Positions 4,344 through 33,059 of a DNA stretch of 64,000 nucleotides are shown here, in pieces. The position numbers were made by a program, and so were the translations under genes. The notes under the pieces are model-generated. The model searched no databases. It saw nothing but the letters and a program-made list of their open reading frames with translations, and was not told the origin of the DNA. Positions within the stretch are counted from its first letter, which is position 1; each line of letters starts with the position of its first letter. This stretch comes from Escherichia phage Baret: the sequence record OR896834.1; one strand, 5' to 3'.

Positions 4344-4345
4344 AT

Positions 4346-6697: not shown

Positions 6698-8572
6698 TTA
6701 CTTAGCTCGAATATCCTGATGCTTCACCCTGCCCATCACCTCGTGCTGTTTGCCAGGGTTAAATGGACGAGCACCCGGATTTCCAAGATACCCACAAACC
6801 CGACGAGTTACTTCAAGAGTTTCAGGGTCATGATTACCACAGATAGGGCACTTGAATCCATCTTCGGATGCTACTGTTTCACCTAAGAATCCACATTTAC
6901 CACAAGAATCCACTGGAGTATTAATACCAAAGTAATGAACCTTACTAGCAGCATAATTAATAACCCATTCCAGTGCATCTGGGAATCGTTTCATATCCGG
7001 TAGTTCTACATAGGAAATGCACCCACCAGAAGCAATCGGAGTAAAGTTAGATTCATAATCAAATTTGACGTTAGGAGCAACTTTACGTTCCACATCAAGG
7101 TGGTGAGAGTTAGTGTAGTAACCTTTGGACAGAATATCTTCATGCTCCGGGAAATATTCACGGTCTAGACGACAAAAGCGATCACATAGGGACTCTGATG
7201 GTGTAGCATACAGACTATAGCCTAACTGAGTCTCTTCCTTCTTCTGATCGACTCTATCTCGCATGTACTGCAATACACGCTGAACAAACTTGATGCAGGT
7301 CTCGGACATTGTATCTACATCTTTGCCAAACATGAACTGTAGCATTTCATGGCAACCAATATACCCTAGAGATACAGAAGCACGGTTATAGAAATGATCG
7401 AATACATATTCATCAGGCCCCAAGCGTAACCCAAAGGCTCCTGACATATAGAGGATGGGTGCAGCTTTAGCTTGAATGTATTTTAAGCGATCAACTCTCC
7501 ACTCCAACGCTTTTAATGCTGTATCCACACGTAGCTCAAGCAAATCAAAGAATAGATCAATATTTCCTTCAGCTTCGATAGCAATTCTAGGCAAGTTTAC
7601 AGAAACAACACCTAAGTTATTACGACCGGCAGTTTCACCATCTTCTGTAGCAGCTAGGAATGAACGGCAGCCCATAGAAACTTTGTAGTCTCCAGTAACC
7701 TCTACAACTTTGTCATAGCTGATATAATCTGGATACATACGTTCAGCAGTACATTTCATAGATAACTTCTTGATGTCATAATTAACATCTCCTGGTTTCA
7801 TATTAACGCCATCACGAAGTACAAATACCAGTTTCGGGAAGATAGCTGTACGTTTATTGATACCTAAACCATCCATGCGTACTTTCAGTATTGCCCTCTG
7901 TACTAGACGTGCTTCCCAAGAAGTTCCTAGACCAAAACCAAAGGTAATAAATGGGCTCTGACCATTAGAGTTGAACATGGTATTGATTTCATATTCTAAA
8001 CCCTGACAAGCGTCATAGACTTCTTTTTCAGTCATCTCCGTAGCCATTACGGATGCTTTGGCTTCATCCTTAGTCCAACGTTTTGCAAACGCATGATTTT
8101 TATCATAGGATTTACGAACATAAGGTGCTAATACTTCATCAAGGCGATCTACAGAAGTACCACCATACTGATGGGAGCTAACTTGAGTGATAATCTGAGC
8201 AGTGATAGCCGCCGCAGTAGTGATAGAGTTTGGAGTGCTAATTTCAGCATTACCAACCTTCATACCATTCTTCAACATATCTTCCAGAGCTACCAGGCAA
8301 CAGTTAGTCATGCCTAATGCAGCATAATCAGCATCATGGAAATGAATATCCCCAATCATATGAGCATTTCGAATCTGAATTGGCATTTCTTCTAGAATCA
8401 GATACTTACTCAATTCACCTGCAAGCATATCCCTTTGTGTAGGGAAACGTTCTGAGGGTTTATTGGCATTATTAAACAGCAGCTCTTCATCTGCTGACCC
8501 TTCGATAATCTCTTTGCAGTTTCTAATTAACGCCTGCATTTCTTTATACTTTAGTTCTTCATTGCGATTCAT
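6698..8572 (-). CDS. nrdD: anaerobic ribonucleoside-triphosphate reductase (class III RNR)
   Basis: 624 aa; C-terminal glycyl-radical motif RVCGYLG preceded by Zn-ribbon CGKCGF...CPICG. Confidence 0.9.
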   Translation of the reverse strand: MNRNEELKYKEMQALIRNCKEIIEGSADEELLFNNANKPSERFPTQRDMLAGELSKYLILEEMPIQIRNAHMIGDIHFHDADYAALGMTNCCLVALEDMLKNGMKVGNAEISTPNSITTAAAITAQIITQVSSHQYGGTSVDRLDEVLAPYVRKSYDKNHAFAKRWTKDEAKASVMATEMTEKEVYDACQGLEYEINTMFNSNGQSPFITFGFGLGTSWEARLVQRAILKVRMDGLGINKRTAIFPKLVFVLRDGVNMKPGDVNYDIKKLSMKCTAERMYPDYISYDKVVEVTGDYKVSMGCRSFLAATEDGETAGRNNLGVVSVNLPRIAIEAEGNIDLFFDLLELRVDTALKALEWRVDRLKYIQAKAAPILYMSGAFGLRLGPDEYVFDHFYNRASVSLGYIGCHEMLQFMFGKDVDTMSETCIKFVQRVLQYMRDRVDQKKEETQLGYSLYATPSESLCDRFCRLDREYFPEHEDILSKGYYTNSHHLDVERKVAPNVKFDYESNFTPIASGGCISYVELPDMKRFPDALEWVINYAASKVHYFGINTPVDSCGKCGFLGETVASEDGFKCPICGNHDPETLEVTRRVCGYLGNPGARPFNPGKQHEVMGRVKHQDIRAK

Positions 8573-22019: not shown

Positions 22020-22094
22020 CGGGGTGTAGTCTAAGGGATAGGCAGGAGTCTTCTAAATTCCTTTATGCAGGTTCGAATCCTGTCACCTCGGCCA
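22020..22094 (+). tRNA. tRNA-Arg (anticodon TCT)
   Basis: Hand-folded: 7-bp acceptor, anticodon loop CTTCTAA, T-arm GCAGG-TTCGAAT-CCTGT, encoded CCA. Confidence 0.8.
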
Positions 22095-22128
22095 ATTTTA
22101 TTAACTGTAACTAAAACAAAGGAAATAT

Positions 22129-23076: not shown

Positions 23077-23100
23077 TATCCACGCGTAATATTCGAAGTA

Positions 23101-23133
23101 AGCCCTGTGTTTCCTGGAGAGCGCAGGGCTTTT
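23101..23133 (+). terminator. intrinsic terminator after SPFH gene
   Basis: AGCCCTG...CAGGGCT hairpin followed by TTTT. Confidence 0.6.
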
Positions 23134-23173
23134 CTGTATAATGTATTTATACAACTAACTAGGGGATCAAATA

Positions 23174-23692: not shown

Positions 23693-23698
23693 TATAAT
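23670..23698 (+). promoter_or_regulatory. early promoter driving tRNA genes
   Basis: -35 23670-23675, -10 23693-23698; overlaps 3' end of Toprim ORF. Confidence 0.55.
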
Positions 23699-23712
23699 AT
23701 ATTTATAAATTC

Positions 23713-23801
23713 GGAAGAATAGCATAACGGTATTGCAGCAGATTGCTAATCTGTCGGTTTGAAATATAGCCTTGTGGGTTCGATTCCCACTTCTTCCGCC
23801 A
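23713..23801 (+). tRNA. tRNA-Ser (anticodon GCT)
   Basis: Acceptor GGAAGAA/TTCTTCC, loop TTGCTAA, long variable arm, T-arm GTGGG-TTCGATT-CCCAC, CCA. Confidence 0.8.
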
Positions 23802-23807
23802 AATTCT

Positions 23808-23885
23808 GGTTCTCAAGCTCATATGGTATGAGCACCCGGCTCATAACCGGAAGGTACGTAGGTTCGAATCCTCGGGGAGCCACCA
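23808..23885 (+). tRNA. tRNA with CAT anticodon (Met/fMet/Ile2 type)
   Basis: 7-bp acceptor (2 GU), D-stem GCTC/GAGC, loop CTCATAA, CCA; T-stem imperfect. Confidence 0.6.
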
Positions 23886-24101
23886 ACTTAATTAGGGGAT
23901 TACAAGTGGAATTATACATAGTTTATGTTGTGTTTATTCAAGATAGAGAATACCCTGATGAATATAAAAAAGGATATAGGTTAGCCAGAGCTACTTCTGA
24001 AGCCCAAGCTATGGATAAAGTGGCAGATTATATGCTTACAGTAGAAAACGTACACTACATCGACTACCTTGAAGCCTCAAAAGTAATTGACTAAACTACA
24101 C

Positions 24102-24178
24102 GGGGGTGTAATCGAATTGGCATAGGTACTGGACTTAAAATTCAGGTTTTGTGGGTTCGAATCCCACCACCCCTACCA
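24102..24178 (+). tRNA. tRNA-like gene, anticodon loop CTTAAAA (TAA, Leu-type) with short variable loop
   Basis: 7-bp acceptor, AC stem CTGGA/TTCAG, T-arm GTGGG-TTCGAAT-CCCAC, CCA; type-I architecture unusual for Leu. Confidence 0.55.
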
Positions 24179-24353
24179 AATTAAGGAAATAAGATGTATA
24201 GACACCCACCTCCGCCAACACGTCGTTCTAGAGAAGTTATCCTCATGGAATTGACTAAAAACTTCAAGGCAACTCTTGAGGATAGAGATTTAGGCACGGA
24301 TGAAGACATTGATTTTATTTGTAGACTATTAAAGATGAAACTGGAGAAACAAC

Positions 24354-24560
24354 ATGGCTAATCCTGAAATTACCATGCAACGATTCATGGCTAAAGGCAT
24401 GATAGCTGAGGCAGGCATTGAACAAGAAGTAAAAAGTTATTACGAACAGATTAAGGGTATTGTAGACTCGGCTAAAAACACCGGAGAAAAAGAACATGGT
24501 GCGGCAATTATGGCTATAACTCTTATTAGTCTAGACTTGGCCGAAGAATCTGGAGTTTAG
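24354..24560 (+). CDS. hypothetical protein (68 aa)
   Basis: ORF track. Confidence 0.35.
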   Translation: MANPEITMQRFMAKGMIAEAGIEQEVKSYYEQIKGIVDSAKNTGEKEHGAAIMAITLISLDLAEESGV

Positions 24561-24590
24561 CTCCTCCAAACAGAATTTTTAAAAATGTAC

Positions 24591-24620
24591 TTGCCTTTTG
24601 CCTTAAATTTCTGATATAAT
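24591..24620 (+). promoter_or_regulatory. early promoter (TTGCCT-18-TATAAT)
   Basis: -35 24591-24596, -10 24615-24620. Confidence 0.55.
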
Positions 24621-24650
24621 AATTATATAAATTGATGGAGGAGTTAACGA

Positions 24651-24926
24651 ATGCAAAATCGTGTTGTAGCAACTGGTATTGAAAGTGCAATCTGTAAATC
24701 CTGGGAAGGCTGGGAAGGTGAGATTGAATGGCTTTATTTCTATGATGTAGAACTTCTACCGGAAGTTAAAGCTAAATGTATTGAAGCTGGCATGGCTCCA
24801 GATGCAAAAGCTGATATTGATATTTTAATGTCTGAACTTAAAGGTCGTGTAGTTACCGTTAGTAATGAGGGCGAAGAAGTTTTCGAACTTCCATTTTCCT
24901 TAACTGTCACTCCTAAGTTCGACTAA
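24651..24926 (+). CDS. hypothetical protein (91 aa)
   Basis: ORF track; SD GGAGGAG. Confidence 0.45.
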   Translation: MQNRVVATGIESAICKSWEGWEGEIEWLYFYDVELLPEVKAKCIEAGMAPDAKADIDILMSELKGRVVTVSNEGEEVFELPFSLTVTPKFD

Positions 24927-24962
24927 CTAATACAGCACTGAGCAAGTTCTTTAAAATTTGAC

Positions 24963-24991
24963 TTGCTCAGTGCCTTAAAACTTGATATAAT
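24963..24991 (+). promoter_or_regulatory. early promoter driving tRNA genes
   Basis: -35 TTGCTC 24963-24968, -10 TATAAT 24986-24991. Confidence 0.55.
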
Positions 24992-25007
24992 AGTTATCTA
25001 ATTCGGA

Positions 25008-25057
25008 AACATATTTAAAAGTGTTTAAACTAGTATTTGAATACTTTTAAATATGTT
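25008..25057. repeat. 14-bp inverted repeat between promoter and tRNA-Tyr
   Basis: AACATATTTAAAAG ... CTTTTAAATATGTT, arms ~22 nt apart. Confidence 0.6.
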
Positions 25058-25145
25058 GGATTAGTATCGTAGAGGTAGCGAAGCAGACTGTAAATCTGCC
25101 GACTCGGAAGGGTCTCGGGTGGTTCGACTCCATCATCCAACACCA
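25055..25145 (+). tRNA. tRNA-Tyr (anticodon GTA)
   Basis: Acceptor GTTGGAT/ATCCAAC, AC stem GCAGA/TCTGC loop CTGTAAA, long variable arm, CCA. Confidence 0.85.
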
Positions 25146-25152
25146 AATTTAA

Positions 25153-25229
25153 GTCCTGTTAGACAAACTGGTAAAGTCACTACCCTTTCAAGGTAGGGTT
25201 TGCGGGTTCGATCCCCGCACAGGACGCCA
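25153..25229 (+). tRNA. tRNA-Glu (anticodon TTC)
   Basis: Acceptor GTCCTGT/ACAGGAC, AC stem CTACC/GGTAG loop CTTTCAA, T-arm GCGGG-TTCGATC-CCCGC, CCA. Confidence 0.85.
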
Positions 25230-25238
25230 ATTAATAAT

Positions 25239-25309
25239 TGGGGTACGCATAGGTTGCAAATGGGCCTCCAAAACCCATGAAAAGGTTTCGAATACCTTTA
25301 CCCCTGCCA
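25239..25309 (+). tRNA. tRNA-Trp (anticodon CCA), U1-U72 mismatch
   Basis: 6/7 acceptor pairs, loop CTCCAAA, T-arm AAGGT-TTCGAAT-ACCTT, CCA. Confidence 0.6.
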
Positions 25310-25315
25310 AAATTT

Positions 25316-25390
25316 GCACCTTTAGCTGAGATGGATTAGCGCTTGCCTGAAGAGCTTGAGAGGTTCGTTCGATACGAACAGGGTGCACCA
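25316..25390 (+). tRNA. atypical tRNA-like gene (possible Phe GAA; non-canonical T-arm)
   Basis: Acceptor GCACCTT/AGGGTGC pairs and CCA present, loop CTGAAGA possible, but T-arm does not fold canonically. Confidence 0.35.
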
Positions 25391-25407
25391 AATTGAAGGA
25401 GATGCTG

Positions 25408-25677
25408 ATGCATCCTGAAAACTTCTTTATTTACTGCGCGGATAAGTTGCTGAAACGTAGAATTAACAAAGTCTATCATTATCGTGTTAGTCAACAGCCT
25501 TATGTATACGCTTTTGACGGTGATCACATTTCATTAGAACAATTATCTTGTGATTACATGATATTGAAGAACTTTGACGAGACGAAGATCTCAAGCGTTC
25601 ACAATCGACAGAATCCATTAACGTGGAAATATAAGAAAAAGAAAGGCATCAAATTCTTAAAAAATGTAGTTGCTTAG
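25408..25677 (+). CDS. hypothetical protein (89 aa)
   Basis: ATG 25408 with AAGGAG 6 nt upstream; track TTG 25393 trimmed. Confidence 0.4.
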   Translation: MHPENFFIYCADKLLKRRINKVYHYRVSQQPYVYAFDGDHISLEQLSCDYMILKNFDETKISSVHNRQNPLTWKYKKKKGIKFLKNVVA

Positions 25678-25698
25678 TTTCCAAAAGTTCTGTATAAT
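25670..25698 (+). promoter_or_regulatory. early promoter (TTGCTT-17-TATAAT)
   Basis: -35 25670-25675, -10 25693-25698. Confidence 0.55.
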
Positions 25699-25727
25699 AA
25701 ATACATAAATTGAACTGGAGAAGCAAC

Positions 25728-25946
25728 ATGACAGAACAAGAATTGAATGAACGTAAGCTAGTAATGCTTCGCTTACTAAATATTTTCTCTGGTATGGACG
25801 GTGGTGGTGATTTCTTAAGACTTAAGGTATTTACAGAAACTGCCGAAGGTGATGCAATCTCTAGAGTTATTAGGAACATGGGAAGCCTGCTAGATGTGGC
25901 TGGAGTAGCTACTCAATACACCTTAGATAATCCTACTGGAGAATAA
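25728..25946 (+). CDS. hypothetical protein (72 aa)
   Basis: ATG 25728 with SD GGAGAAG. Confidence 0.4.
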   Translation: MTEQELNERKLVMLRLLNIFSGMDGGGDFLRLKVFTETAEGDAISRVIRNMGSLLDVAGVATQYTLDNPTGE

Positions 25947-26138
25947 ATGAGAAGATTAGTTAGATTTAAGTGTTGTAGTTCTGAACATATTTTCACACAT
26001 CTTCGTGAATTTAAAATGTGTGATTGTGGTAAATCAGGCTATGACTCTGGAAATGGGTTCTACACCCGTACTCTAGGGAACTTCAATGATTTAGAATTTG
26101 AAGATCTCGAAAAACAAGATAAACCGACCGTTGGCTGA
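25947..26138 (+). CDS. small Cys-rich (zinc-finger-like) protein
   Basis: 63 aa; CC...CDC cysteines; 3' end overlaps tRNA-Cys. Confidence 0.4.
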   Translation: MRRLVRFKCCSSEHIFTHLREFKMCDCGKSGYDSGNGFYTRTLGNFNDLEFEDLEKQDKPTVG

Positions 26139-26200
26139 ATGGCTTAGGCGAAGGATTGCAAATCCTTTTTATGTGAGTTCAAATCTCATGCGGTCGTCCA
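26125..26200 (+). tRNA. tRNA-Cys (anticodon GCA)
   Basis: Acceptor CGACCGT/GCGGTCG, AC stem AAGGA/TCCTT loop TTGCAAA, T-arm GTGAG-TTCAAAT-CTCAT, CCA. Confidence 0.8.
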
Positions 26201-26221
26201 AATTACTAAAGGAAAGAAGTA

Positions 26222-26740
26222 GTGCATACAAAAGTTTTTGATAGTTTGGTAAAGAAAGGCGTTGTTACTAACGAGCCCTTCTATATAACCGCAGAACTAA
26301 TCCAGAGATTTATGGAAGAATATATAAATCTTTCAGGAACCAATGGTAATACCAAAAAGAATACAAATACTATGTATTCGAGAAAACTTGCTGCACTTTC
26401 CTTTATAAAGTTTAAGCAGGAAAATAAACTTCCTATTTCTGAAGGTTTTGTATACTGTATTAGTAATCCTGCATGGAAAAATCAGTATAAAATAGGTATG
26501 AGTCAAAATCCAAAAGAGAGATTAGCTCAATATCAGACTTATTCCCCTTATAGGGATTATAAGTTAGAGCATTGGTCTTTTTGGTTTGACAAACGAAAAG
26601 GTGAAAAACTAATTCACCAGTATTTCAAAGATTTAAAAGAACATGAGTGGTTTAGTATAAATTCTAGGGATCTTAGTAAATATCTAGAACGTATTAACTC
26701 TAGTTCTGACTTATATGGTTCCTTAGCTCTAATTGGTTAG
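26222..26740 (+). CDS. T5orf172-type GIY-YIG-like nuclease-domain protein
   Basis: 172 aa; GFVYCISNP...YKIGMSQNPKER motif; true start may be internal Met; last ~24 nt overlap tRNA-Asn. Confidence 0.55.
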   Translation: MHTKVFDSLVKKGVVTNEPFYITAELIQRFMEEYINLSGTNGNTKKNTNTMYSRKLAALSFIKFKQENKLPISEGFVYCISNPAWKNQYKIGMSQNPKERLAQYQTYSPYRDYKLEHWSFWFDKRKGEKLIHQYFKDLKEHEWFSINSRDLSKYLERINSSSDLYGSLALIG

Positions 26741-26794
26741 AGCGGCATCTTGTTAAGTTGAGGGTTGCTGGTTCGAATCCAACAGGAACCGCCA
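26717..26794 (+). tRNA. tRNA-Asn (anticodon GTT)
   Basis: Acceptor GGTTCCT/AGGAACC, D-stem GCTC/GAGC, loop TTGTTAA, CCA; AC stem has 2 mismatches. Confidence 0.7.
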
Positions 26795-26896
26795 AATTCT
26801 GTGTAGAGTTAAGTAAACCGGTAGCCAACCAGCTATCATTGCTGACATCGAATTCAGCCATAGATACCATTTTCGTTAATAACTGAGGAAACAAGC

Positions 26897-27082
26897 ATGT
26901 CCAAGAATGTAATTGCGCAGCTAGAAGTTCATCGTGATAGCACTATCAACAATATTGAAGTTGAGAAGAAATACATAGAAGAACTTAAACATGATATACT
27001 GGTAAGTCTCAACCGTCTTAATGTACGAAAAGAGTTTCTTAAAGAACTTAATGCAGCTATTGAAAAACTCAAAGCTGAGTAA
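26897..27082 (+). CDS. hypothetical coiled-coil protein (61 aa)
   Basis: ORF track. Confidence 0.35.
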   Translation: MSKNVIAQLEVHRDSTINNIEVEKKYIEELKHDILVSLNRLNVRKEFLKELNAAIEKLKAE

Positions 27083-27091
27083 ATGAATTAT

Positions 27092-27168
27092 GCGACCGGG
27101 GCTGGCTTGGTAATGGTACTCCCCTGTCACGGGAGAGAATGTGGGTTCAAATCCCATCGGTCGCGCCA
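27092..27168 (+). tRNA. tRNA-Asp (anticodon GTC)
   Basis: Acceptor GCGACCG/CGGTCGC, AC stem CTCCC/GGGAG loop CTGTCAC, T-arm GTGGG-TTCAAAT-CCCAT, CCA. Confidence 0.85.
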
Positions 27169-27185
27169 AATAAGGTAGGTTAGCT

Positions 27186-27344
27186 ATGGAACGTAGGGAG
27201 TTTACTCCAGAAGAGATAGAGCAGATAAAAGAATCTGCTATGAAAAATGCTAGAATATCTCTGTCACTGGAAGGTATCATTATTAGTGATGTAAACTTTG
27301 AAAAAATCAAAGCCATAGCTGATGAACTGGAAAAAGTAATTTAA
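27186..27344 (+). CDS. hypothetical small protein (52 aa)
   Basis: ATG 27186 with SD AAGGTAGG; below ORF-track cut-off. Confidence 0.3.
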   Translation: MERREFTPEEIEQIKESAMKNARISLSLEGIIISDVNFEKIKAIADELEKVI

Positions 27345-27345
27345 T

Positions 27346-27421
27346 ACATCCATAGCTCAATGGTTAGAGCTACCGCCTCTTAAGCGGAGGGTTCTAGGTT
27401 CAAGTCCTAGTGGGTGTACCA
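27346..27421 (+). tRNA. tRNA-Lys (anticodon CTT)
   Basis: Acceptor ACATCCA/TGGGTGT, D-stem GCTC/GAGC, loop CTCTTAA, T-arm CTAGG-TTCAAGT-CCTAG, CCA. Confidence 0.75.
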
Positions 27422-27447
27422 AATTAAACTAGCACGAGAAATATGCT

Positions 27448-27795
27448 ATGATTAATGCTAAAGAAGAATTGTTACTTGCCCTAAAGAATACTAATTCTGA
27501 AGTTAAGTGTATTAAGATAGAATTCGGTTATTATGGGGATAAAGAAGTTTGGGTATTACCCGTAGGTTATACAGAAAAAGATATTGAAGATTTTCTAGAT
27601 AATCTAGACTTTAAATATGATTCTGGTTTCGGCGGACAATTGCTTTATGGTAACGTATGGTTTACCGATGGAACTTGGTTAGAACGTGGTGAATATGATG
27701 GTTCTGAATGGTGGGAATATAAGACTACACCAGCAATCCCAGAAGAATGCCGAACAATTAATGGTGAAGTAGATCGTACTTTACTATTAAATTAA
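27448..27795 (+). CDS. hypothetical protein (115 aa)
   Basis: ORF track. Confidence 0.45.
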   Translation: MINAKEELLLALKNTNSEVKCIKIEFGYYGDKEVWVLPVGYTEKDIEDFLDNLDFKYDSGFGGQLLYGNVWFTDGTWLERGEYDGSEWWEYKTTPAIPEECRTINGEVDRTLLLN

Positions 27796-28187
27796 CAAAA
27801 TTTCAGTGCAGAACACGGAGCTAGCAATTCGGAAGTGCTGACTCATGATAAGCTGCCTATGTACTTGCGAAGCGGTCGTGTCCAAGACTCGGACTCTTGC
27901 ACTGAAAACAATCAAACATTCTAGCGTGGTTGATGGGGAAACCAGCTTGGCGAGGGCAGAAGCTCGTTCGATTCGAGTGAAAGAATGGTTCTCGTAAGTC
28001 CGCACAAGTGATAACAGGTTCGAGTCCTGTCTAGAATGACACTATAAAGTTTACTTATTATGTAGGTTCCGATAGACCGGCGGGTCTATTCTGGCATTTA
28101 AGAGAGGTCTCGCAAACTTCTTTGTCAGCCGTGGGGTTGGTAGCCTCCAGGTGGCCTACACAATAAGTAAATTTATTAAAAATTCAT

Positions 28188-28216
28188 TTGCTATTCTGCT
28201 TTATTATCTGTATAAT
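28188..28216 (+). promoter_or_regulatory. early promoter (TTGCTA-17-TATAAT)
   Basis: -35 28188-28193, -10 28211-28216. Confidence 0.6.
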
Positions 28217-28248
28217 ATATTTTATAAAGTGAAGAGAAGGAAAGCAAA

Positions 28249-28407
28249 ATGAAACACAAGATAGCTCAAGTTTTTATGGCATTATGGTGTATACCAATAG
28301 CTATAACAGCATTTAATCTAGATACTTTTACTATAGAAGAAAAATGTATCGGATTAGTTAGCGGTTTTAGTATGCTGGGCTTATCTTTGCTGTGGTTAAA
28401 GAAATAA
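28249..28407 (+). CDS. small hydrophobic membrane protein (52 aa)
   Basis: ATG 28249 with SD GAAGGAAAG after promoter; below ORF-track cut-off. Confidence 0.35.
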   Translation: MKHKIAQVFMALWCIPIAITAFNLDTFTIEEKCIGLVSGFSMLGLSLLWLKK

Positions 28408-28411
28408 TATT

Positions 28412-28489
28412 CTCCGTGTAGCTCAGTTTGGCCAGAGCGTTTCGTTTGGGGCGATAGGGTCGGGGGTTCAAATCCTCCCACGGAGACCA
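28412..28489 (+). tRNA. tRNA-Pro (anticodon TGG)
   Basis: Acceptor CTCCGTG/CACGGAG, D-stem GCTC/GAGC, loop TTTGGGG, T-arm GGGGG-TTCAAAT-CCTCC, CCA. Confidence 0.8.
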
Positions 28490-28495
28490 AACAAT

Positions 28496-28573
28496 TGCGG
28501 GTTAGATCTCTGGTAGAGATCGCTAGTCTCATAAGCTAGAAAGAGGTAGGTTCGATTCCTGCACCCGCTTCCA
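28496..28573 (+). tRNA. tRNA with CAT anticodon (Met/Ile2 type), U1-U72 mismatch
   Basis: D-stem GATC/GATC, AC stem CTAGT/GCTAG loop CTCATAA, T-arm GTAGG-TTCGATT-CCTGC, CCA. Confidence 0.7.
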
Positions 28574-28593
28574 CTTTAATAGAGGATTTCGAA

Positions 28594-28761
28594 ATGAAAG
28601 TATTTCGATTAGTAGTAAGTGACAAACGTTTAGGTAAGAATACCTCAAAATCCTTACTTGCTCATTATGGAAAAGATGAGAAAGAAGTAATGGCGGAGTT
28701 TGGGATTAATCACCCTTACTTGAAAGTTCACTCTATTAAAGAAGTATATAATGGTTACTAA
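28594..28761 (+). CDS. hypothetical small protein (55 aa)
   Basis: ATG 28594; between tRNAs; below ORF-track cut-off. Confidence 0.3.
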   Translation: MKVFRLVVSDKRLGKNTSKSLLAHYGKDEKEVMAEFGINHPYLKVHSIKEVYNGY

Positions 28762-28762
28762 T

Positions 28763-28841
28763 AGATCGCTAGCTCAATAGGTTTAGTAGCATCCGACTTT
28801 TAATCGGAAGGTTCTGGGTTCGAGTCCCAGGCGATCTACCA
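28763..28841 (+). tRNA. tRNA-Lys (anticodon TTT)
   Basis: Acceptor AGATCGC/GCGATCT, AC stem TCCGA/TCGGA loop CTTTTAA, T-arm CTGGG-TTCGAGT-CCCAG, CCA. Confidence 0.85.
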
Positions 28842-28859
28842 ATTTCAAGAAAAACGCAG

Positions 28860-28888
28860 TTGCTTGATGCTTAATTTCTTGTTATAAT
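28860..28888 (+). promoter_or_regulatory. early promoter followed by non-coding leader then tRNA-Ala
   Basis: -35 TTGCTT 28860-28865, -10 TATAAT 28883-28888. Confidence 0.6.
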
Positions 28889-29126
28889 ATTTATATAAAT
28901 TGATGAGGATTTCTCCTCATCATAGTTCACTAAGGTATTAGCTCGACCTAGGACTGGCTGCCAAAAAGCACGATCCCTACGATTCGGGAGGAGTTCTAGA
29001 TTAGTCCACTAGATTCAGCGGCAACTGAATAGTGTATTGGGTTTGCGAGATGACGCGGTTCCTTCCGCTCGAAGCGAAGGTGCTGTAGTTACGCCGAGCT
29101 AATAGCCTTAGTAAACTAAAGAATTT

Positions 29127-29205
29127 GGGGGATGGGTCTGCTAGGGGTGGACACCTCGCTTGCACCGAGGACATCAGAACGATTCGAATTCGTTATCCTC
29201 CACCA
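29127..29205 (+). tRNA. tRNA-Ala (anticodon TGC)
   Basis: Acceptor GGGGGAT/ATCCTCC, AC stem CCTCG/CGAGG loop CTTGCAC, T-arm AACGA-TTCGAAT-TCGTT, CCA. Confidence 0.7.
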
Positions 29206-29210
29206 AATAC

Positions 29211-29287
29211 GCGTGATTGATGGAATTGGCATACATACCGTCCTTAGAAGTCGGGTTTTGAGGGTTCGAATCCCTTGTCACGCACCA
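29211..29287 (+). tRNA. tRNA-like gene, anticodon loop CTTAGAA (TAG, Leu-type) with short variable loop
   Basis: Acceptor GCGTGAT/GTCACGC, T-arm GAGGG-TTCGAAT-CCCTT, CCA; type-I architecture unusual for Leu. Confidence 0.55.
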
Positions 29288-29412
29288 AATTTGATGGTCA
29301 GAGTAAATTAAACCTACTATCTCGGTTGAGCTGTTTTAATGGGTTCGAATCCCAGCGAGGCGTAACTGCCTGGTGTGATAGAGGCATCATTCCACTAACA
29401 TTGGAAAAACTA

Positions 29413-29643
29413 ATGAAACGAAAATTAAAAAAGTCTTATATAATTAAGATAAATAAGCTACGAAGTAGGGCAAAAGGATGGCCACTTCGAATATTAATTG
29501 CGGATAACCATACTAGATACCATGCGGAACAACGTCATTACAAACAGTGGGAGTCATACTGCCGCTCAAAAGCAGGTCGTTTAGATGGATCTTATGAGTT
29601 TCTATTTGGTAAGAAGCCTACTAGAGTAGCTTTAGGTAATTAA
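29413..29643 (+). CDS. hypothetical basic protein (76 aa)
   Basis: Internal ATG of track ORF 29275-29643, whose 5' part overlaps tRNA sequence. Confidence 0.3.
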   Translation: MKRKLKKSYIIKINKLRSRAKGWPLRILIADNHTRYHAEQRHYKQWESYCRSKAGRLDGSYEFLFGKKPTRVALGN

Positions 29644-29648
29644 TACTT

Positions 29649-29739
29649 GGAAGAGCAAATCGAATTGGCGACGAAAACCGCTTGGAAAGTGGCTGACTGG
29701 TAAAACGGCTTGAGAGTTCAAATCTCTCCTCTTCCGCCA
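29649..29739 (+). tRNA. tRNA-Ser (anticodon GGA)
   Basis: Acceptor GGAAGAG/CTCTTCC, loop TTGGAAA, long variable arm, T-arm GAGAG-TTCAAAT-CTCTC, CCA. Confidence 0.75.
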
Positions 29740-29751
29740 AACAATTTATAT

Positions 29752-29846
29752 GGTAGGTCAATCCAACGGCTGGCGCTGGACTCCGACTTGAAATCGGTTG
29801 ATCGTAGTGATACGGTGTAAGGGTTCGATCCCCTTACCTACCTCCA
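29752..29846 (+). tRNA. tRNA-Ser (anticodon TGA)
   Basis: Acceptor GGTAGGT/ACCTACC, AC stem CCGA/TCGG loop CTTGAAA, long variable arm, T-arm AAGGG-TTCGATC-CCCTT, CCA. Confidence 0.75.
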
Positions 29847-29851
29847 AATCT

Positions 29852-29980
29852 TGGAATATGCCGGAATTGGTAGACGGGACTGCCGAATAGGTTTACTAGG
29901 AACATCCACTCCTAGAAATATACCTTAAAAGCGGTTGAGTTAAATGGTCTAACTCATGAAGGTTCAAGCCCTTCTATTCC
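29852..29980 (+). ncRNA. atypical ~127-nt tRNA-like RNA with Leu-type D-arm
   Basis: 5' TGGAATA + D-arm CCGG-AATTGGTAGA-CGGG, two extra hairpins, T-arm GAAGG-TTCAAGC-CCTTC and 3' TATTCCT pairing with the 5' end; no canonical anticodon arm. Confidence 0.3.
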
Positions 29981-30211
29981 TTGATACATCAATGGCTCAA
30001 AGTGTAACGGTGCTATTTGATGCTCTTGGAAAGACTTTCCCGACATGCGTTCGGGGGTAAGCTTCTGAGGCTAGAATAGAAGAGTTTCTGAGAGCCGCCA
30101 CAATTGAAAATTCGTACTCGTCTTGAGCTGCGTGCAATAGGAGATAACTTGATTAGTATTCTAGAACATGCTAATTGAGGATGGTTTCGCTAACCCTGCG
30201 AGTTTTCAATT

Positions 30212-30289
30212 GTGGCTATATCATAATTGGTTAATGATCCTGATTGTGAATCAGGCCTATGTGGATTCGAATTCCACTAGCCACCCCCA
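30212..30289 (+). tRNA. tRNA-His (anticodon GTG)
   Basis: Acceptor GTGGCTA/TAGCCAC, AC stem CCTGA/TCAGG loop TTGTGAA, T-arm GTGGA-TTCGAAT-TCCAC. Confidence 0.8.
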
Positions 30290-30314
30290 AATTAACTTAA
30301 ATAGGAAATAAAAT

Positions 30315-30509
30315 ATGGCTGATTTCTGCAAACAATGCTCCATTGATATGTGGGGCAGAGATACTGGTGATCTTTCTGGGCTGATTACAGAAGCCGAAGT
30401 CAAAGAAGGTTATGGTGCAGTTGTGGTTTGTGAAGGATGCGGAGTCATTCGAGTAGATCATGAGGGTAAGCGCCTTGAAGAATCTGAGCCAGTTACCCTA
30501 TTTCCCTAA
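30315..30509 (+). CDS. small zinc-ribbon-like protein (64 aa)
   Basis: ORF track; CKQC...CEGC cysteine pairs. Confidence 0.4.
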   Translation: MADFCKQCSIDMWGRDTGDLSGLITEAEVKEGYGAVVVCEGCGVIRVDHEGKRLEESEPVTLFP

Positions 30510-30522
30510 AGTAAAGAATTAT

Positions 30523-30598
30523 TGGGATGTAGATCAATTGGCAGATCGTCGGCCTCTGACTCCGAAGGTTCCACGTTCGATCCGTGGCATCCCAGCCA
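30523..30598 (+). tRNA. tRNA-Gln (anticodon CTG)
   Basis: Acceptor TGGGATG/CATCCCA, D-stem GATC/GATC, loop CTCTGAC, T-arm CCACG-TTCGATC-CGTGG, CCA. Confidence 0.75.
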
Positions 30599-30604
30599 AA
30601 TACT

Positions 30605-30680
30605 TGGAGAGTAGTGTAACGGTTAGCACAACGGCCTTTGACTCCGTTAATGGTAGGTTCGATTCCTCCTTCTCCAGCCA
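30605..30680 (+). tRNA. tRNA-Gln (anticodon TTG)
   Basis: Acceptor TGGAGAG/TTCTCCA, D-stem GTGT/GCAC, loop CTTTGAC, CCA. Confidence 0.75.
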
Positions 30681-30687
30681 AATTAAT

Positions 30688-30762
30688 GCGTGATTAGTTC
30701 AGTGGCTAGAATAACTGGCTTCCAACCAGTAGACACGAGTTCGACTCTCGTATCCCGCACCA
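30688..30762 (+). tRNA. tRNA-Gly (anticodon TCC)
   Basis: AC stem ACTGG/CCAGT loop CTTCCAA, T-arm ACGAG-TTCGACT-CTCGT, CCA; one acceptor mismatch. Confidence 0.8.
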
Positions 30763-30776
30763 AATAAGGAAACACT

Positions 30777-31028
30777 ATGCACGTTTTTGAGTTTCGTAAT
30801 AAAAGTACTGATAAGCGAGTTATCATTATTGGAGAAACATATCGAGCATATGAACAAACTGATGGCTCTGTTATCTTGAATGATGAGAAAGGAGGTTTTA
30901 GCTTTTATCCAGAAGAACCTTATGAAGAGTTTCGAAAACAATTTAACCTAGACTGGAGAAAGCATTTAAACACTGTTGCTTCATCTGTAGTATTGCCAAC
31001 TACCAGTACTGTACTCTCTAATGGCTGA
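30777..31028 (+). CDS. hypothetical protein (83 aa)
   Basis: ORF track; SD AAGGAAAC. Confidence 0.4.
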   Translation: MHVFEFRNKSTDKRVIIIGETYRAYEQTDGSVILNDEKGGFSFYPEEPYEEFRKQFNLDWRKHLNTVASSVVLPTTSTVLSNG

Positions 31029-31187
31029 CAACCTAAAAGTAAAGATTGATAAACAAAAGAAACGTGTAGAAGTAGAGATTGGTGAAGAACGTGTTGCCTT
31101 TACTTTTGAATTTCTACAGCAAATGGCAATGGCAGTTATGACTGATAAGTCTCCTGTTATTGAAAAAGAAATCCCGTTGAAATAACG
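31023..31187 (+). CDS. hypothetical small protein (54 aa)
   Basis: ATG overlapping upstream stop (ATGGCTGA); below ORF-track cut-off. Confidence 0.3.
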
Positions 31188-31195
31188 GGATCATC

Positions 31196-31270
31196 GCTCC
31201 TAAAGCATTGCTGGCGATGCAGTTGCCTTGTAAGCATCTGAACCGGGTTCGATTCCTGGTGGGAGCACCA
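31196..31270 (+). tRNA. tRNA-Thr (anticodon TGT)
   Basis: Acceptor GCTCCTA/TGGGAGC, D-stem GCAT/ATGC, loop CTTGTAA, T-arm CCGGG-TTCGATT-CCTGG, CCA. Confidence 0.8.
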
Positions 31271-31285
31271 AATTTAAAAATTCAT

Positions 31286-31314
31286 TTGCCTTCTCTCTTA
31301 TTTATTGTTATAAT
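31286..31314 (+). promoter_or_regulatory. early promoter (TTGCCT-17-TATAAT)
   Basis: -35 31286-31291, -10 31309-31314. Confidence 0.6.
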
Positions 31315-31344
31315 ATTCATATAAATTAATGAGAGGGAAACCAA

Positions 31345-31635
31345 ATGAAACGTTATCTTTCTATTGTATTCCAAACTGGTGGTCAAAGATATACCTATGA
31401 ATTTCCATCTTCTTGGAAAATCAAAGAAGGTGATCAAGTAGTAGTGTTAACACCGCGTGAAGGGTATAAAGTAGTAATGGTTAAACAAGTATTCCCAAAA
31501 GATCATGAACCAGCTAAAGGCATTCGCTATAAGATGATTCATGGTGTGGTCCGTCAAGTACCACGAACTGAGGTAGAAGTAGATAAGACTGGAGAAACTA
31601 AATTCCATTATACTTCTTACTTAGATAGTGTGTGA
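31345..31635 (+). CDS. hypothetical protein (96 aa)
   Basis: ORF track; SD GAGAGGGAAAC. Confidence 0.45.
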   Translation: MKRYLSIVFQTGGQRYTYEFPSSWKIKEGDQVVVLTPREGYKVVMVKQVFPKDHEPAKGIRYKMIHGVVRQVPRTEVEVDKTGETKFHYTSYLDSV

Positions 31636-31650
31636 TGTAAATATTCTAAT

Positions 31651-31727
31651 ACTTCGGTAGCTTAGCGATCTAAAGCACCCGGCTGATAACCGAGAGATCG
31701 GGGGTTTAAATCCCTCCCGGAGTACCA
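31651..31727 (+). tRNA. tRNA-Ile (anticodon GAT)
   Basis: Acceptor ACTTCGG/CCGGAGT, D-stem GCTT/AAGC, loop CTGATAA, T-arm GGGGG-TTTAAAT-CCCTC (variant T-loop), CCA. Confidence 0.8.
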
Positions 31728-31826
31728 AATTTAGGAATTAAGACTATGCGTCCAGGAAAGTTTAAAAAAGCTAATTGGTCTAAAGAGTATAAAGAATACT
31801 TACTTAGTCTAGTAAAACATAACAGT

Positions 31827-31902
31827 TAGTTGGCAGAGTGGTTATGCACCTCCTTCATACGGAGCGACTACAGTGGTTCAAATCCACTACTAACTACCAT
31901 TA
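31827..31902 (+). tRNA. tRNA with CAT anticodon (Met/fMet/Ile2 type)
   Basis: Acceptor AGTTAGT/ACTAACT, loop TTCATAC, T-arm AGTGG-TTCAAAT-CCACT, CCA. Confidence 0.7.
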
Positions 31903-31936: not shown

Positions 31937-32131
31937 ATGTTAACAATTAAAATAATGTCAGCCAAGAATGGTGAACATATCCATACAGGCAAAAGCGTAA
32001 GCTTTAATCCTAGAAATAAGAGATTGGCTATAGTTGGAGTAGATCAAGCCATCTTTTTAAAAGAAGATGAAGTAGCATACGTCATGAACCAAACTGGTAA
32101 GACAGTTTCCGTATACTATGGAAAAGTATAA
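31937..32131 (+). CDS. hypothetical protein (64 aa)
   Basis: ORF track. Confidence 0.4.
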   Translation: MLTIKIMSAKNGEHIHTGKSVSFNPRNKRLAIVGVDQAIFLKEDEVAYVMNQTGKTVSVYYGKV

Positions 32132-32173
32132 AGAATAAAGAGCTGAGCCAAATTCTAGCATCGTGGAGATCTA

Positions 32174-32542
32174 ATGAAAGCATATCAAAATCTTAAGTCT
32201 GGCGTAATTAATCTTGTTCATGATAATCAGATTATTCAACTGTACTCTAAAAATGGCGAACTTAAACAAAAAGTTCTGGTTGAGGATCTAGAGGGTATTA
32301 CACCCCATTTTGACCCCGAGTCCTTTCGTGAAGTCAAGGTGGAAGTCGCCCCTCAAATTGAAGGTGGTCAGCACCTAAATGTCAATGTGTTAAGTCGTGA
32401 TCAGCTTTTGGATGCACAGAAACATCCTGAAAAATACCCTCAATTAACTATCCGTGTTTCAGGGTACGCTGTGCGTTTTAACGCACTGACGCGTGAACAG
32501 CAGAACGACGTTATTAGTCGTACATTTACTCAGGCGATGTAA
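32174..32542 (+). CDS. grcA: autonomous glycyl-radical cofactor GrcA(YfiD)-like protein
   Basis: 122 aa; C-terminal [11 protein letters not shown]...[21 protein letters not shown] closely matches the GrcA/PFL glycyl-radical domain (RVSGYAV). Confidence 0.8.
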
Positions 32543-32623
32543 TGGGGCTTGGATACGGTTTCTACGAACTACGTAAGGTAGTCGAGCAAACTCCATTTAT
32601 CTCCCAAGTTTTAGGAGAAATGT

Positions 32624-32938
32624 GTGGATCGAGCATTAAGACGTCATCACCGGCAACGTGTAAAGAACAACCGCAAGAAGTATTGGACAGTCTTCCCACA
32701 TGAAGAAAGCCCTAAACGGTTAGGTATTATCACTACTACTCCTTGTATCTGTTCTTGTTGGATGTGCGGGAATCCTCGCAAATACTTTAAGAATAGTAAA
32801 GCAGGGATGAAAACCTCGGAGATTAGGAAAATGGAAGCAATGATTACGGATATTTCAAATGATGAATTTGATGGCTTTGTAGGATTCGGAGAAGGAATTA
32901 GCTCAGGCTGTTTCGAAGATGTACGCCCCGATTTGTAA
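32624..32938 (+). CDS. hypothetical Cys-rich basic protein (104 aa)
   Basis: ORF track. Confidence 0.4.
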   Translation: MDRALRRHHRQRVKNNRKKYWTVFPHEESPKRLGIITTTPCICSCWMCGNPRKYFKNSKAGMKTSEIRKMEAMITDISNDEFDGFVGFGEGISSGCFEDVRPDL

Positions 32939-32947: not shown

Positions 32948-32982
32948 AACCCCAGCTATTGAATAGGTAGTCTGGGGTTTTT
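32948..32982 (+). terminator. intrinsic terminator
   Basis: CCCCAG...CTGGGG hairpin followed by TTTTT. Confidence 0.6.
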
Positions 32983-33059
32983 CTGTATACAGGTAGATAA
33001 TTTATGTATAATAAAATTCATCCACATTAGGTTAATTTAAAAAACTTAATGGAGGTAAT

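What the first reader, a model, noticed from the sequence alone, without database searches (positions are those of the whole stretch)
32174..32542. Phage-encoded GrcA (YfiD)-like autonomous glycyl-radical cofactor
The C-terminal 60 residues nearly replicate the GrcA/pyruvate-formate-lyase glycyl-radical domain (QHLNVNV...[21 protein letters not shown]). In bacteria GrcA rescues oxygen-damaged PFL. A phage copy, in the same genome as a class III RNR (nrdD), implies the phage supports host anaerobic metabolism; the RVSGYAV motif is PFL-type rather than the NrdD-type RVCGYLG.
Basis: partly seen in the sequence, partly recalled or inferred. Interest (0 to 1): 0.6.

Follow-up and report, generated by a model that had tools for sequence, protein, structure and literature searches.

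The report
T5-like phage GrcA spare-part protein
This is a real, conserved 122-residue phage gene that copies the radical-carrying tail of the host's pyruvate formate-lyase; its phage T4 counterpart was shown in 2001 to repair oxygen-damaged enzyme, so the finding is correct but not new.

Summary
Window 32174..32542 (+) is an intact 122-aa ORF with a Shine-Dalgarno site. Residues 61-122 are 77-82% identical to the C-termini of E. coli GrcA, PflB and TdcE. They include the exact PFL-activase substrate heptamer RVSGYAV, with the radical glycine at G97.

The window is a T5-like phage (Tequintavirus), 98% identical to Salmonella phage PMBT29. The gene is the orthologue of T5.056 and is present in about 435 of about 440 T5-like records. 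It is under strong purifying selection (dN/dS 0.07) and lies in a conserved T5 early transcription unit just after the tRNA cluster.

It is 52% identical over its full length to T4 Vs.6/Y06I, which was shown biochemically in 2001 to reconstitute oxygen-cleaved PFL. The most likely function is therefore the same. Host PflA would activate it, since no activase was found in the phage DNA examined. It would keep PFL working while the host cannot express its own genes.

Three points are new here:
- The T5-like copy is an old phage lineage, not a recent host capture; synonymous sites are saturated.
- Residues 1-34 are not alignable to bacterial GrcA.
- PFL's product, formate, is the reductant of the phage's own NrdD, which suggests a functional link.

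Verdict: already known; low interest.

The parts
32174..32542 (+). CDS of the GrcA-like autonomous glycyl-radical protein (122 aa plus stop); orthologue of T5.056
   Evidence: ORF. Pfam Gly_radical, PHROG 1209 full length, TIGR04365 121.5 bits. 100% identical to the PMBT29 protein. T5.056. dN/dS 0.067 over 29 distinct T5-like alleles.
32165..32168 (+). Shine-Dalgarno GGAG, 5 nt upstream of the ATG
   Evidence: Read directly from the sequence.
32174..32353 (+). N-terminal half (residues 1-60): divergent, phage-type. By analogy with YfiD it is the part that binds damaged PFL and promotes activation.
   Evidence: dN/dS 0.106. hhalign: only columns 35-61 align to other phage copies (prob 90%) and only columns 50-61 to bacterial GrcA. 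AF2 predicts a beta-sheet with pLDDT about 80. Role of the YfiD N-half: PMC8683613.
32354..32539 (+). C-terminal glycyl-radical domain (residues 61-122), equivalent to PflB 698-759 and GrcA 66-127
   Evidence: dN/dS 0.017. All 34 columns that are invariant across 93 homologues lie between residues 63 and 119. AF2: helix 75-83, hairpin 92-95/98-101, helix 107-117. Top Foldseek hits are 6OWR and PFL.
32453..32473 (+). Codons for RVSGYAV (residues 94-100), the minimal PFL-activase substrate; the radical glycine G97 is at 32462-32464
   Evidence: Sequence. The heptamer RVSGYAV is a competent PFL-AE substrate (PMC10665898).
31266..31340 (+). Homologue of the annotated T5 promoter P11; probable start of the transcription unit that contains the gene
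   Evidence: 93% identical to the T5 P11 feature. The scan finds TTGCCT-17-TATAAT with an upstream TG at 31286-31314.
32950..32982 (+). Rho-independent terminator (CCCCAGC...GCTGGGG-like stem followed by TTTTT), homologue of the terminator annotated after T5.055; probable end of the unit
   Evidence: 95% identical to the T5 terminator region. RNAfold draws a hairpin there.
32624..32938 (+). Co-transcribed downstream ORF (104 aa, T5.055 homologue, PHROG 4499, function unknown) with an invariant CICSCWMCGNPRK motif
   Evidence: It is always directly downstream in the T5-like loci.
6698..8572 (-). Context: phage class III ribonucleotide reductase NrdD (RRVCGYLG), of the E. coli/T4 formate-dependent type
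   Evidence: Pfam NRDD 2.5e-171. Sequence. T4 NrdD (1H78) E 2.3e-176.

Best explanation
The gene encodes a stand-alone 'spare part' glycyl-radical protein of the GrcA/YfiD-Y06I kind.

Proposed mechanism:
1. It is made early in infection from a sigma-70 T5 early promoter.
2. It binds host pyruvate formate-lyase (PflB, possibly also TdcE) whose own C-terminal radical domain has been cut off at Gly734 by oxygen.
3. Host PflA, the PFL-activating radical-SAM enzyme, abstracts a hydrogen from G97 in the RVSGYAV loop.
4. The G97 radical then generates the Cys419 thiyl radical of PflB, which restores pyruvate -> acetyl-CoA + formate.

Why a phage would carry it: T5 destroys the host chromosome, so the cell cannot re-make PflB or induce its own grcA. 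A phage copy keeps fermentative ATP and acetyl-CoA production going during infection under microaerobic, gut-like conditions. It would also keep up the supply of formate, the reductant of the phage's own NrdD.

Shown here: homology, conserved catalytic and recognition residues, predicted fold, purifying selection, near-universal presence in T5-like phages, and no activase homologue in the phage DNA examined.

Inferred: the biochemical activity (from the T4 and E. coli homologues), the dependence on host PflA, the timing of expression, and the benefit to the phage.
For: C-terminal domain:
- Residues 61-122 are 77-82% identical to GrcA, PflB and TdcE, with the exact RVSGYAV heptamer.
- RVSGYAV alone is a PFL-AE substrate (PMC10665898).
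- All 34 columns invariant in 93 homologues are present.
- The AF2 model has the hairpin-plus-helices fold. Its best PDB matches are YfiD (6OWR) and PFL.

Link to a tested homologue:
- Full-length 52% identity to T4 Vs.6. T4 Y06I/Vs.6 and YfiD were shown to be activated by PFL-AE and to restore activity to oxygen-cleaved PFL (PMC8683613 citing Wagner 2001).

The gene is functional and conserved:
- dN/dS is 0.067 overall, 0.106 for the N-half and 0.017 for the C-half, over 29 distinct alleles.
- About 435 T5-like records carry it, against about 440 with the T5-type dNMP kinase.
- It has a GGAG ribosome-binding site and lies between conserved homologues of T5 promoter P11 and a terminator.

Dependence on host enzymes and rationale:
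- No PflA or NrdG homologue was found in the window plus the first 50 kb of the closest complete genome.
- T5 degrades host DNA early in infection (bioRxiv 10.64898/2026.04.02.716235, abstract).
- Formate is the NrdD reductant and a PFL product (PMC4390871). The phage NrdD is of the T4/E. coli type.
Against: - No experiment exists for any T5-clade protein. None was found in four literature searches.
- The N-terminal half, which in YfiD is needed for binding cleaved PFL and for efficient activation, is the most divergent in the family. Residues 1-34 align neither to bacterial GrcA nor, by profile, to other phage copies. Target recognition could therefore differ.
- The protein scores below NCBIfam's GrcA equivalog cutoff (121.5 against 170). 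The T4-type protein does too (152.9), so this is weak evidence.
- Expression and timing are inferred from T5 annotation, not measured.
Confidence: 0.72

Rival explanations
1. It is a spare part or alternative radical subunit for a different glycyl-radical enzyme. Candidates are host TdcE (2-ketobutyrate/pyruvate formate-lyase) or the phage's own NrdD after oxygen cleavage.
For: The C-domain is marginally closest to TdcE (51/62, against 49/62 for PflB and 48/62 for GrcA). It shares TdcE's tail [20 protein letters not shown]. The phage encodes an oxygen-sensitive NrdD and no activase homologue was found. PMC8683613 speculates that spare parts may exist for other GREs.
Against: The differences among TdcE, PflB and GrcA amount to 1-3 residues out of 62, and the tree is poorly resolved. 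TdcE is itself a PFL isoenzyme activated by PflA, so this is hardly a distinct mechanism. The NrdD radical loop (TRRVCGYLGNPGARPFNPGK) and C-terminus are unrelated beyond RV.GY. NrdD is activated by NrdG, not PflA (established knowledge).
Confidence: 0.12
2. It is a decoy or inhibitor. It mimics the PFL radical domain to titrate host PflA, or to occupy PFL, and so re-routes or shuts down host fermentation instead of rescuing it.
For: It contains the complete PflA recognition loop. Its divergent, possibly folded N-half could give different binding behaviour. Phages often encode mimics of host proteins (general knowledge).
Against: Every residue that is invariant in bona fide GrcA/PFL radical domains is kept under very strong constraint, including those far from the PflA-binding loop (dN/dS 0.017). 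The T4 homologue restores activity rather than inhibiting it. Blocking ATP and acetyl-CoA production would hurt a lytic phage with a large burst.
Confidence: 0.08
3. It is a non-functional remnant: a captured 3' fragment of host pflB, tdcE or grcA that is simply carried along.
For: Many GenBank records label it 'pyruvate formate-lyase' or '2-ketobutyrate formate-lyase'. It sits in the tRNA region next to small ORFs of unknown function.
Against: The ORF is intact in all 31 copies examined, with dN/dS 0.067 at dS 0.38. It has its own start codon and ribosome-binding site, plus a conserved non-PFL N-terminal half shared with T4-type proteins (MKAYQ...). It is present in about 99% of T5-like records. 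Its GC content (0.41) is close to that of the phage window (0.39), and its synonymous sites are saturated against the host genes.
Confidence: 0.02

Closest known systems
Bacteriophage T4 Vs.6 (Y06I), autonomous glycyl radical cofactor
   Same: Phage-encoded, about 120 aa. Same MKAYQ start. 52% identity over the full length (E 9e-39). Same radical domain and RVSGYAV loop. The genome also carries nrdD. Shown in vitro to be activated by PFL-AE and to reconstitute oxygen-cleaved PFL.
   Different: - The T4-type C-half is essentially the host's: the last 60 residues are 100% identical in protein and 98% in nucleotides to E. coli grcA. The T5-type C-half is only about 72% nucleotide-identical to any host paralogue.
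- The T4-type N-half aligns to bacterial GrcA (hhalign prob 99%). The T5-type N-half does not, apart from its last residues.
- In a T4-type record nrdG is annotated beside nrdD, and T4 itself encodes NrdG (own knowledge). No NrdG homologue was found in the T5-like DNA examined.
E. coli GrcA (YfiD), PDB 6OWR; TIGR04365 / IPR011140
   Same: A stand-alone protein of about 14 kDa. 74% identity over residues 51-122. Same radical Gly context. The C-half has the same fold (Foldseek top hit).
   Different: There is no detectable similarity in residues 1-50. The linker is two residues shorter. The score is below the equivalog cutoff. The YfiD N-half is disordered by NMR, whereas AF2 predicts a beta-sheet for the phage N-half (a prediction only).
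C-terminal glycyl-radical domain of PflB / TdcE (formate C-acetyltransferases)
   Same: 79% and 82% identity to the last 62 residues. Identical [10 protein letters not shown].
   Different: The phage protein is 122 aa, against 760 and 764 aa for the enzymes. It lacks the whole catalytic barrel and the Cys418/Cys419 site. TIGR01255 scores 85.9 bits against a cutoff of 994. GenBank names such as 'pyruvate formate-lyase' are therefore misnomers.
GrcA-like proteins of jumbo and other phages (Klebsiella K64-1, Salmonella SE_PL, Yersinia fHe-Yen9-03, Vibrio D479)
   Same: The C-domains share phage-typical residues ([15 protein letters not shown]) and are 51-53/61 identical. They group with the T5-like copies in a weakly supported NJ tree.
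   Different: Their N-halves (…SGEH.GTI…ARIIVSKTF…) are clearly GrcA-like. The T5-like N-half is not.

Membership tests
Autonomous glycyl radical cofactor (GrcA/YfiD/Y06I) | Small stand-alone protein (about 14 kDa) whose only recognisable domain is a glycyl-radical domain | tested here: met
   122 aa. The single Pfam hit is Gly_radical, residues 62-103.
Autonomous glycyl radical cofactor (GrcA/YfiD/Y06I) | C-terminal half homologous to PFL residues about 693-759, with the radical glycine in RVSGYAV | tested here: met
   49/62 identical to PflB 698-759. RVSGYAV at residues 94-100, G97.
Autonomous glycyl radical cofactor (GrcA/YfiD/Y06I) | Fold of the C-half: beta-strand, Gly-tipped hairpin, C-terminal helix, as in 6OWR and PFL | tested here: met
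   AF2 model: H75-83, E92-95/E98-101, H107-117. Foldseek top hits are 6OWR (E 3.7e-6) and 2PFL. The strand region 60-72 has low confidence.
Autonomous glycyl radical cofactor (GrcA/YfiD/Y06I) | N-terminal half of about 60 residues homologous to that of GrcA (needed for binding cleaved PFL) | tested here: inconclusive
   Profile-profile comparison: only columns 50-61 align to bacterial GrcA (prob 15%), and columns 35-61 to other phage copies (prob 90%). The MKAYQ start and Q5 are shared with T4-type proteins.
Autonomous glycyl radical cofactor (GrcA/YfiD/Y06I) | Score above the NCBIfam TIGR04365 equivalog cutoff (170 bits) | tested here: not met
   121.5 bits. The T4-type Vs.6, whose T4 orthologue is experimentally validated, also fails at 152.9. 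E. coli GrcA scores 234. The cutoff is tuned to bacterial proteins.
Autonomous glycyl radical cofactor (GrcA/YfiD/Y06I) | Radical installed by PflA, and activity restored to oxygen-cleaved PFL | not testable with these tools
   Needs anaerobic biochemistry (EPR) or genetic complementation. Demonstrated only for YfiD and T4 Y06I.
Formate C-acetyltransferase (PflB/TdcE), as many GenBank records name this gene | Full-length barrel of about 760 aa with catalytic Cys418/Cys419 | tested here: not met
   122 aa. TIGR01255 gives 85.9 bits against a cutoff of 994, matching only profile positions 683-744.
Class III RNR (NrdD) radical domain | RVCGYLG-type loop preceded by a Zn-ribbon; Pfam NRDD | tested here: not met
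   The motif is RVSGYAV and there is no NRDD hit. The window's true NrdD is at 6698..8572.
PHROG 1209 (phage protein family, unnamed) | Full-length profile match | tested here: met
   E 4.7e-48; residues 1-122 match profile positions 1-121 of 121.

The most novel reading that the evidence does not exclude
The T5-like proteins form a distinct, long-resident phage lineage of spare-part proteins. Their remodelled, possibly folded N-terminal module (residues 1-34 unalignable to GrcA) would change how or when they dock on PFL, for example onto intact or not-yet-activated PflB. Their selective value would be to secure formate for the phage's own formate-dependent NrdD. That would make GrcA-like protein -> host PFL -> formate -> phage NrdD a phage-run anaerobic dNTP supply line that borrows both host activases (PflA and NrdG).
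Probability: 0.25. Interest if true: 0.45.

Novelty: already known. Interest (0 to 1): 0.2.

Why it matters
It is a clean example of a phage auxiliary metabolic gene that repairs a host enzyme rather than replacing it. It also shows that T5-like phages, which are common biocontrol and therapy candidates, are equipped for oxygen-fluctuating gut conditions: they carry NrdD plus a PFL spare part and, as far as examined, no activase of their own.

Practical value:
- Annotation clean-up. The same gene is variously labelled PFL, 2-ketobutyrate formate-lyase, acetyltransferase-related protein, RNR subunit or hypothetical protein.
- A natural N-terminal variant that could help define how spare-part proteins recognise damaged PFL.

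It does not open a new kind of biology.

Tried and rejected
- Phage-encoded activase. tblastn of E. coli PflA and NrdG against the window and against PMBT29 1-50000 gave nothing better than E about 1. A CxxxCxxC scan found only the 104-aa ORF at 32624-32938, which is too small for a radical-SAM enzyme and has no Pfam hit. I concluded that the host activases must be used.
- Recent capture from the host. Rejected: third-codon-position identity to grcA, pflB and tdcE is 43-47%.
- Phylogeny of the 61-residue C-domain (NJ, 200 bootstraps). Only shallow nodes are supported. The bootstrap labels were unreliable after re-rooting, so I use the tree only as a weak indication that the T5-like copies group with other phage copies.
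- First N-half profile test. It was contaminated by mis-sorted sequences, so I redid it with clean classes.
- Generic promoter/terminator scan. It was not above the shuffled expectation and found no terminator. It was replaced by direct homology to annotated T5 elements.
- Fold search against afdb50 was unavailable. The BFVD search added only other phage GrcA-like models.
- Literature searches for any study of T5.056 or T5-like GrcA found none. PMC6754787 (the YfiD NMR paper) is not held.

Full report
**1. Observation**

The ORF list shows an ATG-initiated ORF of 122 aa at exactly 32174..32542 on the + strand. GGAG lies at 32165-32168, 5 nt upstream of the ATG. The protein reads [122 protein letters not shown].

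Family and structure-database matches:
- Pfam Gly_radical: E 3.8e-18, 66.4 bits against a gathering score of 22.2.
- PHROG 1209, an unnamed family: matched end to end, E 4.7e-48.
- NCBIfam: the best model is GrcA (TIGR04365, 121.5 bits). Only residues 50-122 match, and the score is below the 170-bit cutoff.
- PDB sequences: the best hit is E. coli YfiD/GrcA (6OWR, E 1.6e-30, residues 48-121). Next is the last 62 residues of PflB (E 5e-27).

**2. Where the window comes from**

A 3-kb stretch around the gene is 98.2% identical to Salmonella phage PMBT29 and to Escherichia phage vB_Eco_mar004NP2. It matches 453 phage records, essentially all of them T5-like (Demerecviridae, Tequintavirus and relatives).

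The gene is the orthologue of T5.056. The T5 record annotates that gene as 'putative acetyltransferase-related protein, match to IPR001150'. Other records call it PFL, 2-ketobutyrate formate-lyase, formate acetyltransferase, RNR subunit, hypothetical protein or, correctly, autonomous glycyl radical cofactor.

A tblastn search finds the protein in 1583 phage records:
- About 435 T5-like records at 80% identity or more.
- More than 1000 T4-like records (gene vs.6) at about 53% identity over the full length.
- Jumbo phages and Vibrio and Aeromonas phages.

A T5-type marker gene, dNMP kinase, occurs at 60% identity or more in about 440 records. The gene is therefore nearly universal in the T5 group.

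**3. Anatomy and comparison with the host proteins**

I took E. coli K-12 grcA, pflB, tdcE and pflA from the reference genome. I took vs.6 from a T4-like phage and from T4 itself.

Over residues 61-122 the phage protein is identical at the following numbers of positions:

| Compared with | Identical positions |
|---|---|
| TdcE | 51/62 |
| PflB | 49/62 |
| T4-type Vs.6 | 49/62 |
| GrcA | 48/62 |

The heptamer RVSGYAV occupies residues 94-100, with G97 equivalent to PflB G734 and GrcA G102. This heptamer is by itself a competent substrate of the PFL-activating enzyme (PMC10665898). In an alignment of 93 homologues, 34 columns are invariant. All of them lie between residues 63 and 119.

BLASTP gives 52% identity to T4 Vs.6 over the whole length (E 9e-39), including the shared start MKAYQ. 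Against E. coli GrcA it gives 74% identity, but only over residues 51-122.

Profile-profile comparison of the N-terminal halves alone:
- T4-type and jumbo-phage N-halves are clearly homologous to bacterial GrcA N-halves (prob 99%, E 1.8e-18).
- The T5-type N-half aligns to the other phage proteins only over columns 35-61 (prob 90%).
- It aligns to bacterial GrcA only over columns 50-61.

The T5 clade therefore has the most divergent N-terminus of the family.

**4. Predicted structure**

AlphaFold2 with the 93-sequence alignment gave a mean pLDDT of 74. The features are:
- A beta-sheet for residues 2-54, with pLDDT about 80.
- A low-confidence segment at residues 60-72. This corresponds to the strand that completes the PFL barrel.
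- A helix at 75-83, a hairpin at 92-95/98-101 with G97 at its tip, and a helix at 107-117.

The best Foldseek matches in the PDB are YfiD (6OWR) and PFL, followed by other glycyl-radical enzymes. Only the C-half is matched. By NMR the YfiD N-half is disordered, yet it is needed for binding cleaved PFL and for efficient activation (PMC8683613). A folded N-half in the phage protein is only a prediction.

**5. Is it a working gene?**

I compared 31 T5-like copies: the window plus 30 IMG/VR loci. There are 29 distinct coding sequences and all are intact. Results:

| Region | dN/dS |
|---|---|
| Whole protein (mean dS 0.38) | 0.067 |
| Residues 1-60 | 0.106 |
| Residues 61-122 | 0.017 |

Both halves are under purifying selection, which excludes a decaying fragment.

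**6. Origin**

The last 60 codons are 71-74% identical in nucleotides to grcA, pflB, tdcE and T4-type vs.6. Third-codon-position identity is only 43-47%, which means synonymous sites are saturated. The gene's GC content (0.41) is close to that of the window (0.39). The T5-like copy is therefore an old resident of phage genomes, not a recent capture from Escherichia or Salmonella.

By contrast, the T4-type vs.6 3' half is 98% identical in nucleotides to E. coli grcA, with 97% identity at third positions. This indicates a recent exchange with the host in that lineage.

A neighbour-joining tree of the 61-residue C-domain places the T5-like proteins with other phage copies and places T4 Vs.6 with E. 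coli GrcA. The deep nodes are not supported.

**7. Genomic and expression context**

The gene follows the last tRNA of a cluster of 22 tRNA genes spanning 22020-31899. Homologues of three elements annotated in the T5 record are conserved in the window:
- Promoter P11 at 31266-31340, 93% identical. It contains TTGCCT-17-TATAAT with an upstream TG.
- A rho-independent terminator at about 32950-32982.
- Promoter P10a at 32967-33039.

The inferred transcription unit is:
- P11
- ORF 31345-31635
- tRNA-Ile
- tRNA-Met
- ORF 31937-32131
- GrcA-like gene
- ORF 32624-32938
- terminator

All T5 gene classes are transcribed by host sigma-70 RNA polymerase (PMC7472727, abstract). The neighbouring ORFs belong to families of unknown function.

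**8. The anaerobic context**

NrdD is at 6698..8572 (-). It has a Pfam NRDD match at E 2.5e-171 and carries RRVCGYLG. It is closely related to T4 NrdD (E 2.3e-176). The aerobic NrdA and NrdB genes are also present.

Neither PflA nor NrdG has a homologue in the window or in bases 1-50000 of the closest complete genome. PMBT29 1-50000 overlaps the start of the window, so together these two stretches appear to cover nearly the whole phage. That coverage is an inference. Both radical proteins must then be activated by host enzymes, which is also an inference.

The E. coli and T4 class III reductases use formate as reductant, and PFL is the main anaerobic source of formate (PMC4390871). This gives a rationale for finding the two genes together.

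**9. Mechanism**

The best-supported explanation has a confidence of about 0.7. The protein would work like YfiD and T4 Y06I. It docks on oxygen-cleaved PflB and receives its radical on G97 from host PflA. It then regenerates the Cys419 radical, restoring pyruvate cleavage (mechanism as described in PMC8683613 and PMC12338860).

T5 degrades host DNA early in infection (bioRxiv 10.64898/2026.04.02.716235). The infected cell therefore cannot replace PflB or induce grcA. A phage-borne spare part would preserve fermentative energy and formate supply during infection in oxygen-fluctuating habitats.

Rival explanations:
- A different target, TdcE or NrdD (confidence about 0.12).
- A PflA/PFL decoy (about 0.08).
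- A dead remnant (about 0.02, effectively excluded).

**10. Novelty and verdict**

[quoted passage not shown] The T5 gene has been in the databases since the T5 genome was deposited, and several T5-like records already name it GrcA. No paper in the searchable library deals with the T5-clade protein, so its activity is untested.

The modestly new points are:
- The long independent history of the T5-type copy.
- Its unalignable N-terminal 34 residues.
- No activase homologue in the phage DNA examined.
- The possible formate link to the phage NrdD.

The feature is ordinary and already known, and the interest is low (0.2).

Noticed in passing
L036 2501-2863 (T4-like ime09 vs.6) versus L037 4067-4450 (-) (E. 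coli K-12 grcA): The last 60 codons of T4-type vs.6 are 98% identical in nucleotides to E. coli grcA, with 97% identity at third positions and 100% in protein. The N-terminal half is phage-specific. This looks like a recent recombination or gene conversion with the host gene, in contrast to the T5-like copy.
   Followed up: partly
window 6698-8572 (-), and the whole window plus L040: The T5-like phage encodes NrdD. No NrdG (or PflA) homologue was found in the window or in PMBT29 1-50000. In a T4-type record nrdG is annotated next to nrdD. The phage reductase presumably relies on host NrdG.
   Followed up: partly
window 32624-32938 (+): This 104-aa ORF lies directly downstream and is co-transcribed (T5.055 homologue, PHROG 4499/6828, no Pfam hit). 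It has an invariant CICSCWMCGNPRK motif, the only CxxxCxxC found in the window or in PMBT29 1-50000. Its C-terminal tail varies in length. Function unknown; probably a small zinc-binding protein.
   Followed up: partly
window 31937-32131 (+): This 64-aa ORF (PHROG 3909) lies between tRNA-Met and the GrcA-like gene and is a variable insertion. The tRNA-to-ATG spacer is 274 nt in 10 related loci and 13-23 nt in 9 others. In T5 itself the gene directly follows tRNA-Met.
   Followed up: partly
window 32542-32703 (+): This 53-aa ORF starts inside the GrcA-like stop codon (TAATG) and overlaps the next gene in another frame. It matches PHROG 31464 and is open in 27 of 29 distinct related loci. It is unclear whether it is a real overlapping gene or is merely kept open by constraint on the other frame.
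   Followed up: partly
proteins P0108 and P0106: P0108, a cluster of 900 member sequences, is an enterobacterial-type GrcA whose last 20 or so residues are PflB-type (SLTKEQQQDVITRTFTQSM). This suggests grcA/pflB recombination. P0106 carries a tandem duplication of [10 protein letters not shown].
   Followed up: no
window 3915-5866 (-) and 8916-9677 (+): Around nrdD lie a Sir2-family protein (5012-5866), a HAD_SAK_2 phosphatase-like protein (4346-4852), two paralogous ORFs at 3513-3905 and 3915-4343 (the latter hits Pfam DUF7415), and a PhoH-like ATPase (8916-9677).
   Followed up: no
GenBank annotations of the orthologues: The same 122-aa protein is labelled pyruvate formate-lyase, 2-ketobutyrate formate-lyase, acetyltransferase-related protein, ribonucleotide reductase subunit, HNH homing endonuclease or hypothetical protein in different records. 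Only a minority use 'autonomous glycyl radical cofactor'.
   Followed up: yes
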